DNA from: Escherichia phage vB_EcoM_G2494
Reading direction: 5' to 3' (one strand)
Sequence record: MK327935.1
DNA length: 64,000 nucleotides
Numbering within the stretch: the stretch's first letter is position 1; each line of letters starts with the position of its first letter. Positions 27,163 through 32,314 of this stretch are shown one piece after another. The notes beneath the pieces were generated by a model. It did not search any database, was not told the DNA's origin, and was given only the letters and a program-made list of their open reading frames with translations. The position numbers and the translations under genes were made by a program.

Positions 27163-27381
27163 TTATTTATATCGCTTTCTCTCGCGACGTTTTTGATCTT
27201 CTTCCTTGATAGAGTTAAATGCATCAAAAAGACACATGAAACTAATAATAAACATAACCGTATTTTCTATGATATCCCACGGCTTCGCATCAGTACAGAT
27301 CCCCCAAACGGTAAGAAATGCAAATAGTGCAGAAGAGATCACAAGCATGATACTTGCTAAGATATAAAAAGTCATTTTCAT
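27163..27381 (-). CDS. small hydrophobic membrane protein
   Basis: ORF track 72 aa. Confidence 0.35.
   Translation of the reverse strand: MKMTFYILASIMLVISSALFAFLTVWGICTDAKPWDIIENTVMFIISFMCLFDAFNSIKEEDQKRRERKRYK
27164..27171 (-). promoter_or_regulatory. T4 late-promoter-like box TATAAATA
   Basis: Minus strand TATAAATA overlapping the stop of ORF 27163-27381 and facing a ~150-nt ORF-free interval that ends at terminator 26986-27012. Confidence 0.35.
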
Positions 27382-27572
27382 GGTTTTACCTCAATTCTTC
27401 GATATTCATCACACATCCACGCAGTAAGCAAGAATCCCAACACATAAGCAACAAAATACGTTAATGCTTCTTCTGGTTCGGTGCTATGCGCCATCATCAG
27501 ACCAGCGAGAAAGGTCTTAACAATTACATTTAAAATAATTAGCCACGCAAATAATTTCATCGTTTGCCCCAT
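27378..27572 (-). CDS. small hydrophobic membrane protein
   Basis: ORF track 64 aa. Confidence 0.35.
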   Translation of the reverse strand: MGQTMKLFAWLIILNVIVKTFLAGLMMAHSTEPEEALTYFVAYVLGFLLTAWMCDEYRRIEVKP

Positions 27573-27796
27573 TTCGGTCGAGTCTTTTCAAACTTATACA
27601 TTCCGTAACAATCTCGAATCATCCACGTAACAAGAGCACCAGTCAACACAGACAATACACAGAAGAAGTAAAACGGTCCGGTTGCATTATCAACATGAGC
27701 AAGCCAGGTAAAGAAAACACATGCTAAGAATGTGAAGAACATCATAAAACACAAGAAAGCAAAATATTTTATGCTACTCATAGCGCCACCATACAA
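27557..27796 (-). CDS. small hydrophobic membrane protein
   Basis: ORF track 79 aa. Confidence 0.35.
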   Translation of the reverse strand: MYGGAMSSIKYFAFLCFMMFFTFLACVFFTWLAHVDNATGPFYFFCVLSVLTGALVTWMIRDCYGMYKFEKTRPKWGKR

Positions 27797-27884
27797 CAGA
27801 TCATAAGAAAACCCAACGCAATAAGAATTGCATCAAATTTAGTGAACTCCGGTCCACCTATCAACATCATTCGTTCTATTTCGT

Positions 27885-28127
27885 TCATAGCGTACAAAGC
27901 CATTTAAAAGCACCACATAAAGCGAGCAGAATACTAGGTATAAACGAGATCAAAACAAGGTTGCAAAAATCATCTAAGGTAACACCGGAATAGCTACCTA
28001 CTGTAACAACACCGATCATCAGACACAGAAAGAAAACAAATGCAATCAGAAACAAAGTATTACTAAACAGTTTAGTGATCATTAGACACCCCACGACGAT
28101 CAATTTCAAAAACTTTTTTATCATCAA
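27885..28127 (-). CDS. small hydrophobic membrane protein
   Basis: ORF track 80 aa. Confidence 0.35.
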   Translation of the reverse strand: MMIKKFLKLIVVGCLMITKLFSNTLFLIAFVFFLCLMIGVVTVGSYSGVTLDDFCNLVLISFIPSILLALCGAFKWLCTL

Positions 28128-28275
28128 CGAAGCATGTCACAACTGCCTCGTTGACTTCCGCAAATTGTTGTGTTACCCACTTAAGGTCAGAGCGAAACAA
28201 TGTTCTATTAATAACAAATGTTTTACCGCTCTTATCCTTACCCATAAATTTTGCTTTAACCATATCAAATTCCAT
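28072..28275 (-). CDS. hypothetical small protein
   Basis: ORF track 67 aa. Confidence 0.4.
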   Translation of the reverse strand: MEFDMVKAKFMGKDKSGKTFVINRTLFRSDLKWVTQQFAEVNEAVVTCFVDDKKVFEIDRRGVSNDH

Positions 28276-28509: not shown

Positions 28510-28884
28510 TTAAGAATATTTTACTTCGTCTACAATGTCTTTCATGACATTGATTTCCATTCCGGTCAGAACACGTTGGAACATGTGCTGCACATACGCT
28601 TTCAGGTATTCATTTGATGGCTTGCTATCGAAAGTCTTTTTAGTGTAGTAGTCATCACCGAAAGCTACTGTAATTACATTTTCGTCGTCGTTCCAAGCGA
28701 TATAAGCAAATTTGCCGTTATCCCAGAAGCGAGCACTAATTGCTACTTTTGTTGAATCGAATCCTACTTCGCTGTGAGATTCAAGAACTACTTGCGTACC
28801 AGTTTCTTTATGAATGTAGTAGCGGGATACTAAGTCAAAGTTACGGGTGTAGTGACATTCGAATTTATCTTTAAACATCATCAT
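28510..28884 (-). CDS. hypothetical protein
   Basis: ORF track 28510-28953; start refined to ATG at 28884 with AGGAGA SD, downstream of promoter 28922-28950. Confidence 0.5.
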   Translation of the reverse strand: MMMFKDKFECHYTRNFDLVSRYYIHKETGTQVVLESHSEVGFDSTKVAISARFWDNGKFAYIAWNDDENVITVAFGDDYYTKKTFDSKPSNEYLKAYVQHMFQRVLTGMEINVMKDIVDEVKYS

Positions 28885-28921
28885 TTTGATTCTCCTAAGT
28901 GTGTTTCGTTTCGATATGTGC

Positions 28922-28950
28922 ATTATGCTATAGTCGTTTATGGTTGTCAA
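28922..28950 (-). promoter_or_regulatory. sigma70-like early promoter (TTGACA-17-CATAAT)
   Basis: Minus strand TTGACAaccataaacgactatagCATAAT. Confidence 0.55.
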
Positions 28951-28951
28951 C

Positions 28952-28986
28952 ACCTAAAAACAAAAAACCCCGAAAAATTTTTCGGG
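28952..28986 (-). terminator. rho-independent terminator
   Basis: Palindromic hairpin ccccgaaaaatttttcgggg; minus RNA followed by UUUUUUGUUUUU. Confidence 0.55.
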
Positions 28987-28994
28987 GTATAGAA

Positions 28995-29465
28995 TTACAG
29001 TTTGGTCGTCCACTCCAGGTCTAGATCTTCGACATACTCATGAGATCGGACAATCTCTAAATCGAACTCTAGGTTAGTGCCAAATTTACGCGCACCAACA
29101 TCATAAGAAAGCGTGATATGCGGTACATATTCAGGATAATCCCACGTCGCACCTAAAGCAGTGCCGATATCGTGTCTGAATTGCATGTAGTCGCTTTCAA
29201 ATGCCAGCACAAGCGCATTAGTACCGGATTGAGTTTCAAACACTTTCAGATGGCATAGAGAGCCTAAGAACTTCTCCCCTTCTTCTGGGATAAACGGAAC
29301 ATAGACACGAGAATATAAGATAGTGCTATGCAGTTTATCACGAGGAACGGCATTAGGCAGATCGTAGAACTCCTGCAATTTTTCAATGCGGTCTAGTGTA
29401 TCCTCAGTGAATTTAACCGCCGCATATGTACCTTTAACGGATTCTCGAAACGGGGTCATAATCAA
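28995..29465 (-). CDS. 2H-phosphoesterase-fold protein at the T4 57B (Acb1) position
   Basis: 156 aa; two H-x-T/S-x motifs (LHSTIL and PHITLS); located immediately upstream of 57A and gene 1 as T4 57B is. Confidence 0.5.
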   Translation of the reverse strand: MIMTPFRESVKGTYAAVKFTEDTLDRIEKLQEFYDLPNAVPRDKLHSTILYSRVYVPFIPEEGEKFLGSLCHLKVFETQSGTNALVLAFESDYMQFRHDIGTALGATWDYPEYVPHITLSYDVGARKFGTNLEFDLEIVRSHEYVEDLDLEWTTKL

Positions 29466-29728
29466 GCCTCCGTGATCAGTTCTACTTCCTCTTTAGCGTC
29501 TTCCGCTGCTTCGTCTTTAGGGAGAAGTGCTTTCACTTCTTCGACAATAGCATCAAGGGAAACAGTCCCGTTTTCGTCTGGCTGAATACCCAGAATGCGT
29601 ACCAGTTCCATCAATACACGCTCACGATCTTTCAGTTGGCCTTCTAAGAATGCGGCCTTTTCTTGAGTGTCAAACAGACGTACTTTCAGGACATTAATCA
29701 TTTGTTCATGCTGATTGGACATATTCAC
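29462..29728 (-). CDS. 57A: tail-fibre assembly chaperone gp57A-like
   Basis: 88 aa; LKVRLFDTQEKAAFLEGQ resembles the T4 gp57A coiled-coil N-terminus; position next to gene 1. Confidence 0.6.
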   Translation of the reverse strand: MNMSNQHEQMINVLKVRLFDTQEKAAFLEGQLKDRERVLMELVRILGIQPDENGTVSLDAIVEEVKALLPKDEAAEDAKEEVELITEA

Positions 29729-29754: not shown

Positions 29755-30411
29755 TTAAATGTTCGCGAGAATCGCGCTTTCAAATTCTTCTAATGTACCA
29801 TTATTTATGATAATGGTTTCACCGTCAATAGGCAAAATTCCTTTTTCGGTGGAGTGAGTCGATACAATACCAGTATCACGCTGAATATGCAACACCTTAG
29901 CACCCATAGAACGCACGAGAGCAATTTCAATAGGCTGACGCACATCAACCACTACAAAATAACCTTCTTCATTTTTGCGCTTCATAAACTCATTCACGAA
30001 GAGATTACACCAATAAAGCGGATTGATCAAGTTAACCATTATATCAGTACCGAGAGTGGTTAACATGAGACGAATAGACCAGACGTTATTATGTTTTTCG
30101 CCAATCTCATTAACGACCTTGTAAATCTCAGCCAGACGATCACAAGTAAAGGAACTACCGCCATACTTCGAATCTAGCATAAGCAGACACTGAATAAACC
30201 ACTTATGCGCGGTATAGGTATCAATACCTAGATCGGATTCTCTGTCACGCCCTAACCCGTCAAAGTCAAGATAAGTCAGACCTAAGTCTGGTTGACATTC
30301 GCACAATATTTCTTTGATCGGTGCTGCCAGTTGATAACTATGTCCATCAATGATTAACGCGGCAGTGTCTTTTCCTACTCGCTTTTTACCACAAAGTGCA
30401 ATCAATTTCAT
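29755..30411 (-). CDS. 1: deoxynucleoside monophosphate kinase
   Basis: 218 aa; P-loop MKLIALCGKKRVGKDT and overall resemblance to T4 gp1. Confidence 0.85.
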   Translation of the reverse strand: MKLIALCGKKRVGKDTAALIIDGHSYQLAAPIKEILCECQPDLGLTYLDFDGLGRDRESDLGIDTYTAHKWFIQCLLMLDSKYGGSSFTCDRLAEIYKVVNEIGEKHNNVWSIRLMLTTLGTDIMVNLINPLYWCNLFVNEFMKRKNEEGYFVVVDVRQPIEIALVRSMGAKVLHIQRDTGIVSTHSTEKGILPIDGETIIINNGTLEEFESAILANI

Positions 30412-30426
30412 TATATAAGCCTCTTA

Positions 30427-31017
30427 TTACTTTCTAAAAGCAGGGTGCATAGCTTTAATACCTTCCACCCTCTGACGATCCGCCGCCTGAATTGCTGGGC
30501 GAGGAACGATCAGTTGACCATCACGTTCAATGCTCATTGTTTTAAAGGGAAGAATTGCAGTACACACCAGAGATTCATGCATATCATCGGTGTATGTTAA
30601 CTCAAGTTCCCCCAATTGTGAACACCAACAACCATAAAAGTTAAAAGTGCACACAATGTTACGTCGTTCGTTGTCCATCATGTGAACTTGAACGGCTTCC
30701 GGCATTGAATCCTTCCACGCAGTGGAGTTACCGTTATTGTAGTCTACTATAGAAAGCATCCATGTGTAAAGGTTTAGATAACTTTCCAAATGCTCATCGA
30801 CAATAAACCGGACTACCAGCGGGTCAAACTCTACATGACTAGACGGATAATCAGCAACCGCCAAACCATATTGACCAGCAACTTGTTTAGTCGGTGGAAT
30901 GGTTATAGCAGGAAGTGTAACACCTTGAGCATTTAAAGTAAAGCCTTTTGTTAGTTGCCCATCTGGAATATTGATCTGCCAGTTGCTGGGGTTAGCATAG
31001 TTAAAGAGATTAGACAT
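30427..31017 (-). CDS. 3: tail tube terminator / tail completion protein
   Basis: 196 aa; T4 order 1-3-2-4. Confidence 0.65.
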   Translation of the reverse strand: MSNLFNYANPSNWQINIPDGQLTKGFTLNAQGVTLPAITIPPTKQVAGQYGLAVADYPSSHVEFDPLVVRFIVDEHLESYLNLYTWMLSIVDYNNGNSTAWKDSMPEAVQVHMMDNERRNIVCTFNFYGCWCSQLGELELTYTDDMHESLVCTAILPFKTMSIERDGQLIVPRPAIQAADRQRVEGIKAMHPAFRK

Positions 31018-31206: not shown

Positions 31207-31461
31207 ATGACAGAAGACATTTTGTTAAAACTCTATGATCGTTTGGACAACGAATTGGCAACATTGCGGGGTGAAGTTCTCTATTTGTCTAAATGCAATA
31301 CAGATCTGCTTAAGCAGATTGCAGAAAGGGATGATCAAATAAAATCCCTTTCAGGTGCATTACGTGATCGCGACAAGGCATTAGAGATTTTACAGCGTGT
31401 TACCAATAAGGAAGAATTAAAAGACTTCTTACATGGTTATGCTCATGCTATCGATCTATAA
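31207..31461 (+). CDS. hypothetical coiled-coil protein on opposite strand between genes 3 and 2
   Basis: ORF track 84 aa; GAGGA SD 7 nt upstream of ATG; preceded by a 189-bp intergenic region. Confidence 0.4.
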   Translation: MTEDILLKLYDRLDNELATLRGEVLYLSKCNTDLLKQIAERDDQIKSLSGALRDRDKALEILQRVTNKEELKDFLHGYAHAIDL

Positions 31462-31492: not shown

Positions 31493-32314
31493 TTATGCAT
31501 CCTTCCAAACTTTCCTTGCGTCGTATTTCTTGCCTTTTGACATAAACTGATATGTCGGCATATAGATAATATTGCTCCAGTCTTTCGGGCTAATCTCAAC
31601 AAGTTTTGTTTTAATGTGTCCCGGTAGATATGCTTTGATCATGTGATCACTTCCACGCATACCTTTTACATCGCTCCATTTGATTTTTAAGCGTGTTTTA
31701 TTGCTCAAGGTAGGAGTAGATGCATATTGCTTTAAAAGTGCTTCCAGAAACTGCTGACGGGCTTTAGGCGTTACATAGTGTAAGTTAAGACCCAGCATTA
31801 CAGTATTACCCGCCTTTGTCTTAGAATCACCCAGACAAATGATCAGCGGGAAAACATCCCAATATGGCAAAGTGTCTTTATACTTCGCATCATACATAAA
31901 GGTATAGATTCGCCCTACTTGCGGTTTTACAATCTGGTGTCCCTTTATTCCCGCTTTTATTGTTTTAGTAAACCACTCCTGTGATTTTTCTTTAGGACGA
32001 CTCTTTGATACAGCACGCATAGACGCACGAAAATCATTAATCATCATCATTGCGCGTTGCTGCTTATTGAGACCCTTTGCGCCTTTCCCTTTTAGTTTTT
32101 CAACTTCTATTGCTGTTTTAATTTCGCTGGCATAACGAGACATACTTTTAGTGAAAGTCGCATAGGCTATTCCCTTAGAATCTGCAAATGCTTTAGCTGT
32201 CATGCCTTTGGCTTTTGCTTTCGCAAATTCTACACCCAATTCGACCCACTGTTTAGACTTTCGTTTTTGGGGAGACGGCTTTTCGTCTTCTGTGATTATT
32301 TCAAATACGCTCAT
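31493..32314 (-). CDS. 2: DNA end protector protein
   Basis: 273 aa (T4 gp2 is 274 aa); synteny. Confidence 0.7.
   Translation of the reverse strand: MSVFEIITEDEKPSPQKRKSKQWVELGVEFAKAKAKGMTAKAFADSKGIAYATFTKSMSRYASEIKTAIEVEKLKGKGAKGLNKQQRAMMMINDFRASMRAVSKSRPKEKSQEWFTKTIKAGIKGHQIVKPQVGRIYTFMYDAKYKDTLPYWDVFPLIICLGDSKTKAGNTVMLGLNLHYVTPKARQQFLEALLKQYASTPTLSNKTRLKIKWSDVKGMRGSDHMIKAYLPGHIKTKLVEISPKDWSNIIYMPTYQFMSKGKKYDARKVWKDA

What the first reader, a model, noticed from the sequence alone, without database searches (positions are those of the whole stretch)
28995..29465. 2H-phosphoesterase-fold gene at the 57B position: candidate cyclic-nucleotide-degrading anti-defence enzyme
The protein has two H-x-T/S-x motifs (LHSTIL, PHITLS) typical of 2H phosphoesterases and sits upstream of 57A and gene 1, the location of T4 57B (Acb1, which degrades cyclic oligonucleotide signals of CBASS). 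Assignment rests on motif and synteny only.
Basis: partly seen in the sequence, partly recalled or inferred. Interest (0 to 1): 0.5.

Follow-up and report, generated by a model that had tools for sequence, protein, structure and literature searches.

The report
Acb1 anti-CBASS nuclease of RB49-like phage

Summary
The ORF is real. It matches Pfam PF23474 (Acb1) at E=1.2e-51, against a cut-off of 27 bits. It matches the crystal-structure sequence of Erwinia phage FBB1 Acb1 (7T26) at E=2e-43, and is 46-47% identical to T4 gp57B. An AlphaFold2 model (pLDDT 91) superposes on 7T26 with TM 0.97 and rmsd 0.9 Å.

All residues shown to matter in Acb1 are present:
- the HxT/HxT tetrad: H44, T46, H114, T116;
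- the base-stacking aromatics: Y12, F74, Y108, W150;
- the adenine-reading glutamate: E144.

Gene order is 3 - 1 - 57A - 57B, as in T4. The gene shows signs of translational coupling to 57A and is followed by a strong terminator.

The window is a Krischvirus (RB49/JSE/Phi1 type, 98-99% identical). The exact protein is already in GenBank as QBO63089.1 of phage vB_EcoM_G2494, a phage that was in the 2022 lysate screen that discovered Acb1.

The gene is a known family member that public records label "hypothetical" or "RNA ligase". Activity is inferred, not measured. Interest is low.

The parts
28995..29459 (-). acb1 (gene 57B) coding sequence: 154 aa plus a TAA stop, starting at the ATG at 29459
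   Evidence: ORF list and sequence. Pfam PF23474 Acb1 E=1.2e-51. PDB 7T26 E=2e-43. JSE 57B is annotated with the same start. The exact protein is GenBank QBO63089.1.
29322..29330 (-). First catalytic HxT motif, H44-S45-T46 (CAT AGC ACT)
   Evidence: Read from the sequence. H44 and T46 are invariant in 62 homologues. They are equivalent to T4 H44/T46, and H44A/H113A is catalytically dead in T4 (PMC9117128).
29112..29120 (-). Second catalytic HxT motif, H114-I115-T116 (CAT ATC ACG)
   Evidence: Read from the sequence. H114 and T116 are invariant in 62 homologues. They are equivalent to T4 H113/T115.
28998..29030 (-). C-terminal segment (residues 144-154) with the adenine-reading E144 and the lid tryptophan W150
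   Evidence: Alignment to T4 E141 and W147. Conservation is E in 56/62 and W in 47/62. The last 4 residues have pLDDT below 50, which fits a lid that is flexible in the apo state (lid described in PMC9117128).
29467..29471 (-). Shine-Dalgarno GGAGG, 7 nt upstream of the acb1 ATG and inside the end of 57A
   Evidence: Read from the sequence. The 57A TGA stop (29462-29464) lies 2 nt before the acb1 ATG, which suggests translational coupling. In T4 the two genes overlap by 4 nt.
28957..28988 (-). Intrinsic terminator just after the acb1 stop: a 9-bp stem (5 G-C pairs), a 4-nt loop and a U-run
   Evidence: Terminator scan. RNA fold -13.6 kcal/mol, z = -4.3, with 0 of 200 shuffles folding as well.
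29462..29728 (-). Gene 57A, the tail-fibre assembly chaperone, immediately upstream in the same transcription direction
   Evidence: Pfam GP57 27.4 bits; PHROG 1002 E=3.2e-26. JSE annotates the start at the ATG two codons in.
29755..30411 (-). Gene 1, dNMP kinase
   Evidence: Pfam DNMK E=1.6e-67.
30427..31017 (-). Gene 3, tail completion / sheath stabiliser protein
   Evidence: PHROG 45 E=4.9e-43; Pfam gp19-like 31.4 bits; JSE annotation.

Best explanation
The gene encodes the Krischvirus (RB49-like) orthologue of T4 gp57B, known as Acb1. Acb1 is a small, metal-independent 2H phosphodiesterase made during infection. By homology, it binds the 3'-5'-linked cyclic di- and trinucleotides that host CBASS cyclases produce (3'3'-cGAMP, cUA, cAAA, cAAG) in a U-shaped pocket. 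Aromatic residues Y12, F74, Y108 and the lid residue W150 stack on the bases. E144 reads the N6 of one adenine. The H44/T46/H114/T116 tetrad catalyses attack of the adenosine 2'-OH on the adjacent phosphodiester, passing through a 2',3'-cyclic phosphate to a linear 3'-phosphate product. Destroying the signal keeps the CBASS effector switched off, so abortive infection does not occur and the phage replicates. Shown here: family membership, fold, conservation of all functional residues, synteny, and the coupling and terminator signals. Inferred from T4 and FBB1 Acb1: the substrates, the chemistry and the anti-CBASS phenotype.
For: Sequence: Pfam PF23474 Acb1 174.7 bits, E=1.2e-51, covering profile positions 1-143 of 144. 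phmmer to the FBB1 Acb1 crystal-structure sequence 7T26/7T27 gives E=2e-43 over residues 10-153. Identity to T4 gp57B is 46-47% over the full length.

Structure: the AlphaFold2 model has mean pLDDT 91.3 and pTM 0.84. Its best PDB matches are 7T26 (TMt 0.97, rmsd 0.9 Å, 52% identity) and 7T27. LigT and other 2H enzymes match only at TM about 0.5.

Residues: in 62 homologues H44, T46, H114 and T116 are invariant. Y12 occurs in 61/62. Position 74 is F or W in all 62. Position 108 is F, Y or W in 58/62. E144 occurs in 56/62 and W150 in 47/62. These are the residues that Hobbs et al. 2022 identified structurally and by mutagenesis (PMC9117128).

Context: the order 3-1-57A-57B is the same as in T4. 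There is a Shine-Dalgarno sequence, a 57A stop 2 nt before the start, and a terminator. All 58 related phage records keep the gene at 80% protein identity or more, 57 of them at 95% or more.

Precedent: all 9 further Acb1 homologues tested in the 2022 paper cleaved 3'3'-cGAMP and cAAA. The exact protein belongs to phage vB_EcoM_G2494, which is listed among the phages of that paper's lysate screen.
Against: No activity has been measured for this orthologue with the tools available. The per-phage result of the 2022 lysate screen for G2494 is in a figure that could not be read. Identity to the two characterised enzymes is only 46-55%. There are aromatic substitutions (F74 for T4 W74, Y108 for T4 F107; both also occur in the active FBB1 enzyme) and a two-residue insertion at 131-132 relative to T4 and FBB1. 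The substrate range could therefore differ in detail. Public records call the protein 'RNA ligase' or 'hypothetical protein'. NCBIfam has no model for it.
Confidence: 0.93

Rival explanations
1. It is an RNA-repair or RNA-ligase type 2H enzyme (LigT / 2'-5' RNA ligase-like), as the RefSeq and PHROG label 'RNA ligase' suggests. It would act on RNA ends or on 2',3'-cyclic phosphates rather than on immune signals.
For: RefSeq JSE and Phi1 call 57B 'RNA ligase', and PHROG 755 carries the same label. There are weak matches to Pfam 2_5_RNA_ligase2 (19.4 bits) and LigT_PEase (14 bits). LigT structures appear in the fold search.
Against: Both LigT-type Pfam matches are below their curated cut-offs (27 and 23.3 bits), while Acb1 scores 174.7 bits. 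Structural similarity to LigT is only TM about 0.5, rmsd 5-7 Å and 11-13% identity, against TM 0.97 and 0.9 Å for Acb1. The 'RNA ligase' label is a family name propagated from the fold and predates the 2022 characterisation of T4 57B. The substrate-contact residues specific to cyclic-oligonucleotide binding are conserved.
Confidence: 0.03
2. It has the same chemistry, but its main biological target in this phage lineage is a nucleotide signal other than CBASS messengers. Candidates are type III CRISPR cA3 or 2'3'-c-di-AMP. Alternatively, its specificity has shifted relative to T4 Acb1.
For: T4 Acb1 is among the most promiscuous viral 2H phosphodiesterases. It cleaves 2'3'-c-di-AMP as fast as 3'3'-cGAMP, and substrate selectivity differs even among close structural relatives (bioRxiv 10.1101/2025.08.21.671373). 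This orthologue differs from T4 at two stacking positions and has a 2-residue insertion.
Against: The substitutions are the ones found in FBB1 Acb1, which was crystallised with 3'3'-cGAMP hydrolysed in the active site. The adenine-reading Glu and the lid Trp are retained. All ten Acb1 homologues tested in 2022 cleaved 3'3'-cGAMP and cAAA. This reading overlaps with the main one rather than excluding it.
Confidence: 0.08
3. It is a decayed or inactive remnant kept only because it is translationally coupled to 57A.
For: Two close relatives in the protein cluster appear disrupted: phage Cognac has the gene split into 64-aa and 82-aa ORFs, and phage TB34 has a truncated, frameshifted version. T4 Δacb1 grows normally without CBASS.
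Against: The ORF here is intact and full length, with every catalytic and binding residue present. 52 phage records carry it at 99% protein identity or more. The structure model is confident.
Confidence: 0.01

Closest known systems
T4 gp57B = Acb1 (anti-CBASS protein 1; NP_049750.1; Hobbs et al., Nature 2022, PMC9117128)
   Same: The length is nearly the same (154 vs 152 aa), with 46-47% identity end to end. The HxT/HxT tetrad, Y12, the adenine-reading Glu and the lid Trp are shared. The genomic position is the same (3-1-57A-57B), with tight junction to 57A.
   Different: F74 replaces T4 W74 and Y108 replaces T4 F107. There is a two-residue insertion at 131-132. The 57A stop lies 2 nt before the start, rather than the 4-nt overlap seen in T4. 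The downstream neighbour is an unknown early gene (phrog_15253) followed by dmd, not ipI. Activity has not been measured for this orthologue.
Erwinia phage FBB1 Acb1 (PDB 7T26 apo, 7T27 with 3'3'-cGAMP)
   Same: It is the closest solved structure: E=2e-43 by sequence, 52% identity in the structural alignment, model-to-crystal rmsd 0.9 Å and TM 0.97. It shares F at position 74 and Y at position 108 with this protein.
   Different: The host genus differs. This protein has the same 2-residue insertion relative to FBB1 in the segment before the last strand.
Other viral 2H phosphodiesterases (Burkholderia phage BCSR5 PDE, PDB 9Q2G/9Q2Y; poxvirus cGAMP PDE; coronavirus ns2) and cellular LigT / CPDase
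   Same: They share the 2H phosphoesterase core with two HxT/S motifs.
   Different: Identity is only 10-18% and TM 0.45-0.73. The BCSR5 enzyme has an N-terminal lid, whereas Acb1 has a C-terminal one. These are separate families, and this protein does not belong to them.

Membership tests
Acb1 (Pfam PF23474; T4 gp57B family) | Full-length match to the curated family profile above its gathering score | tested here: met
   174.7 bits against a cut-off of 27, E=1.2e-51, residues 9-152 on profile positions 1-143 of 144. All 64 database homologues also carry PF23474.
Acb1 (Pfam PF23474; T4 gp57B family) | Compact 2H phosphoesterase fold matching the solved Acb1 structure | tested here: met
   AF2 model with pLDDT 91.3. 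Foldseek against 7T26 gives TMt 0.97, rmsd 0.9 Å, E=2.6e-16. This is a prediction, not a solved structure.
Acb1 (Pfam PF23474; T4 gp57B family) | Active-site HxT/HxT tetrad (T4 H44, T46, H113, T115) | tested here: met
   H44, T46, H114 and T116 are present and invariant in 62 homologues. Their definition comes from PMC9117128.
Acb1 (Pfam PF23474; T4 gp57B family) | Aromatic base-stacking residues (T4 Y12, W74, F107, W147) | tested here: met
   Y12, F74, Y108 and W150 are present. The F and Y variants are those of the active FBB1 enzyme.
Acb1 (Pfam PF23474; T4 gp57B family) | Glutamate contacting adenine N6 (T4 E141), which explains the need for at least one adenosine | tested here: met
   E144 aligns with T4 E141 and is E in 56 of 62 homologues.
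Acb1 (Pfam PF23474; T4 gp57B family) | Flexible C-terminal lid that closes over the ligand | tested here: met
   The C-terminal LDLEWTTKL segment aligns with the T4 and FBB1 lid and includes the Trp. The terminal residues have low pLDDT, as expected for a segment disordered without ligand. Lid closure itself was not tested.
Acb1 (Pfam PF23474; T4 gp57B family) | Position directly after 57A in the 3-1-57A-57B cluster of T4-like phages (typical of the family, not strictly defining) | tested here: met
   Window gene order compared with T4 and JSE.
Acb1 (Pfam PF23474; T4 gp57B family) | [quoted passage not shown] | not testable with these tools
   This needs recombinant protein and TLC or HPLC. 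The 9 further homologues tested in PMC9117128 were all active.
Acb1 (Pfam PF23474; T4 gp57B family) | Protects the phage from CBASS in vivo | not testable with these tools
   This needs a deletion phage and CBASS-carrying hosts. T4 Δacb1 shows a more than 300-fold defect.
LigT / 2'-5' RNA ligase (Pfam PF13563, PF02834) | Match to the family profile above its gathering score | tested here: not met
   19.4 bits against 27, and 14 bits against 23.3. Structural similarity to E. coli LigT is only TM about 0.5.

The most novel reading that the evidence does not exclude
The Krischvirus Acb1 lineage is 46% identical to T4 Acb1, has F74/Y108 and a two-residue insertion before the last strand. It may have a shifted substrate profile. 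One example would be reduced activity on 2'3'-c-di-AMP, which would let these phages defeat CBASS without tripping the Panoptes decoy-nucleotide system. The apparently disrupted copies in phages Cognac and TB34 might reflect counter-selection by such guard systems.
Probability: 0.06. Interest if true: 0.4.

Novelty: already known. Interest (0 to 1): 0.12.

Why it matters
Scientifically it adds little. Acb1 was discovered, solved and shown to defeat CBASS in 2022, and a curated Pfam family already captures this protein. The practical value lies in annotation. The identical protein and its close relatives are still labelled 'hypothetical protein' or 'RNA ligase' in GenBank and RefSeq records of RB49-like phages, several of which are candidates for phage therapy. 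Knowing that they carry an intact anti-CBASS nuclease helps predict host range on CBASS-positive or Panoptes-positive E. coli.

Tried and rejected
- NCBIfam scan: no model matches the protein, so PGAP-style naming gives nothing.
- Literature searches for Krischvirus + Acb1 (0 papers) and RB49 + CBASS (2 irrelevant papers): no study of this orthologue was found.
- Hobbs et al. supplements: phage vB_EcoM-G2494 (RB49 type) is listed in the lysate screen. Its per-phage result is only in figures that are not held as text, so direct evidence of activity could not be extracted.
- Second CBASS antagonist: tblastn with T4 Vs.4/Acb2 found nothing credible in the 64-kb window (best E=0.23). This says nothing about the rest of the genome.
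- T4-type late promoter TATAAATA: there is none on the minus strand between 27172 and 32900. Only a near-match (AATAAATA) lies about 15 nt before the gene 3 start, and sigma-70-like consensus matches lie inside gene 1. The promoter that drives acb1 is therefore not established.
- 'RNA ligase' reading: considered and rejected, see the rival explanations.
- Plus strand under the gene: it holds only short mechanical ORFs with no support.

Full report
**1. The observation**

The interval 28995-29465 holds one uninterrupted ORF on the minus strand. The mechanical ORF list starts it at a TTG (29465). The sequence instead shows a GGAGG at 29467-29471, seven bases upstream of an ATG at 29459. The TGA stop of the preceding gene lies at 29462-29464. 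The RefSeq record of the near-identical phage JSE annotates the same ATG. The gene is therefore 28995-29459, giving 154 aa.

- LHSTIL contains H44-S45-T46, codons 29322-29330.
- PHITLS contains H114-I115-T116, codons 29112-29120.

The plus strand under the gene holds only short ORFs without support.

**2. What it is**

Sequence searches agree.
- The curated Pfam Acb1 model (PF23474) is matched end to end: 174.7 bits against a cut-off of 27, E=1.2e-51.
- The generic 2H families 2_5_RNA_ligase2 and LigT_PEase score below their cut-offs.
- PHROG 755 matches at E=1e-54.
- The only hit among all PDB sequences is Acb1 of Erwinia phage FBB1 (7T26/7T27), at E=2e-43 over residues 10-153.
- tblastn against 50,697 phage records finds the protein in 1,474 records. 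T4 gene 57B matches at 46% identity over the full length. A direct alignment gives 47%.

The structure agrees too. An AlphaFold2 model built on 62 homologues is confident (mean pLDDT 91.3, pTM 0.84; only residues 1-5 and 151-154 are low). It superposes on 7T26 with rmsd 0.9 Å, TM 0.97 normalised to the crystal chain, and 52% identity. The next hits are the Burkholderia phage BCSR5 phosphodiesterase (TM about 0.7). LigT-type enzymes follow only at TM about 0.5.

**3. Functional residues**

Hobbs et al. 2022 (PMC9117128) define the following for Acb1:
- an HxT/HxT tetrad (T4 H44, T46, H113, T115) that performs metal-independent acid-base catalysis;
- four aromatic residues that stack on the bases (Y12, W74, F107, W147);
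- E141, which contacts adenine N6;
- a flexible C-terminal lid.

H44A/H113A is catalytically dead.

In this protein the equivalents are H44, T46, H114, T116, Y12, F74, Y108, W150 and E144. F74 and Y108 are the residues also found in the FBB1 enzyme, which was crystallised with cleaved 3'3'-cGAMP.

Conservation across 62 homologues down to 31% identity:

| Position | Conservation |
|---|---|
| H44, T46, H114, T116 | invariant |
| Y12 | 61/62 |
| 74 | always F or W |
| 108 | aromatic (F, Y or W) in 58/62 |
| E144 | 56/62 |
| W150 | 47/62 |

The only structural difference from T4 and FBB1 is a two-residue insertion at 131-132.

**4. Context**

The window is a Krischvirus of the RB49/JSE/Phi1 type. 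The 3.1 kb around the gene is 98-99% identical to 58 phage records.

On the minus strand the order is:
- gene 4;
- gene 2;
- a small ORF on the opposite strand;
- gene 3 (30427-31017);
- gene 1, dNMP kinase (29755-30411);
- 57A (29462-29728);
- acb1.

T4 has the same 4-2-3-1-57A-57B order. So the gene lies downstream of 57A and gene 1 in the direction of transcription.

The Shine-Dalgarno sequence sits inside 57A, and the stop-to-start distance is 2 nt. This suggests translational coupling. In T4 the two genes overlap by 4 nt.

A strong hairpin terminator follows the stop codon at 28957-28988: -13.6 kcal/mol, z = -4.3. After it comes a near-consensus sigma-70 promoter, TTGACA-17-CATAAT (28950-28922). 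It precedes an unknown early gene (phrog_15253) at the place where T4 has the anti-restriction gene ipI. Then comes dmd, the antitoxin against RnlA/LsoA (Pfam Dmd E=1.5e-15). So acb1 sits at the edge of a variable early region that contains at least one other counter-defence gene. This resembles the arrangement noted for T4.

The promoter that drives acb1 was not established.

**5. How it most likely works**

The mechanism is inferred by homology to T4 and FBB1 Acb1.
1. The enzyme captures CBASS cyclic di- and trinucleotides that contain at least one adenosine.
2. It strains the ring so that the adenosine 2'-OH attacks the adjacent 3'-5' bond.
3. It releases a linear 3'-phosphate product through a cyclic-phosphate intermediate.

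Removing the messenger prevents activation of CBASS effectors. T4 lacking acb1 loses more than 300-fold plating efficiency on CBASS hosts and is otherwise normal.

All nine additional homologues tested in that study cleaved 3'3'-cGAMP and cAAA.

T4 Acb1 also cleaves 2'3'-c-di-AMP, and when over-expressed it can trigger the Panoptes guard system. The same liability may apply here.

Shown here are membership, fold, residues and gene organisation. Substrates, chemistry and phenotype are inferred. I put 0.93 on this explanation.

**6. Rivals**

- *RNA ligase.* The 'RNA ligase' label in RefSeq and PHROGs reflects the shared 2H fold. The LigT-type profiles fail their cut-offs and the fold match is remote. 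Confidence 0.03.
- *Shifted target range.* This cannot be excluded. It has no positive support beyond two conservative substitutions and a short insertion. Confidence 0.08, and it overlaps the main reading.
- *Decayed remnant.* This is contradicted by the intact ORF, full residue conservation, and 52 records at 99% protein identity or more. Confidence 0.01.

**7. Novelty**

The exact 154-aa sequence is already public as QBO63089.1, 'hypothetical protein G2494_00126' of Escherichia phage vB_EcoM_G2494, in a cluster of 79 sequences. That phage is listed as an RB49-type phage in the lysate screen of the paper that discovered Acb1. Homologues are named 'Anti-CBASS protein Acb1' in UniRef and in some newer GenBank phage records.

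No paper specifically on the Krischvirus orthologue was found. NCBIfam has no model, which explains the persisting 'hypothetical' and 'RNA ligase' labels.

**Verdict**

The feature is an already known kind of gene in an already sequenced phage lineage. Interest is low (0.12). The only open questions are the untested activity and specificity of this orthologue, and whether the disrupted copies in two sister phages are real.

Noticed in passing
window 28510-28953 (-), promoter 28922-28950 (-): An unknown early gene sits directly after the acb1 terminator, at the position where T4 has the anti-restriction gene ipI. JSE annotates it as 124 aa starting MMMFKD. It matches phrog_15253 (no function) and weakly matches Pfam Gp30.7 (E=0.004). 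It has its own near-consensus TTGACA-17-CATAAT promoter. It is a candidate for a further counter-defence gene.
   Followed up: partly
window 28072-28275 (-): This is dmd (Pfam Dmd E=1.5e-15), the phage antitoxin against the RnlA/LsoA toxins. It lies about 700 bp from acb1, so the locus looks like a small anti-defence cluster.
   Followed up: partly
window 27163-28127 (-): A run of five small ORFs (41-80 aa) with overlapping starts and stops and very hydrophobic products. They have no family matches above threshold and are annotated hypothetical in JSE.
   Followed up: partly
relatives of window 28995-29459 (protein cluster): Phage Cognac carries acb1 split into 64-aa and 82-aa ORFs. Phage TB34 has a 143-aa version that lacks the N-terminus (no Y12) and has a frameshifted C-terminus (no lid Trp). 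These may be natural inactivations or sequencing errors.
   Followed up: partly
window 31493-32314 (-) versus L001 6494-8439: Phage JSE has a 1143-bp endonuclease gene next to gene 2 that this window lacks. The gene 2 ORF here is 273 aa, and its first 75 residues match a separate PHROG labelled 'HTH DNA binding protein' (phrog_32288), whereas JSE annotates gp2 as 248 aa.
   Followed up: no
window 31207-31461 (+): An 84-aa ORF that looks like a coiled coil lies on the opposite strand between gene 3 and gene 2. It is annotated hypothetical in JSE and has only sub-threshold Pfam matches.
   Followed up: no
whole window: tblastn finds no homologue of T4 Vs.4/Acb2, the cyclic-nucleotide sponge, in these 64 kb (best E=0.23). 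Whether the phage encodes one elsewhere was not checked.
   Followed up: partly
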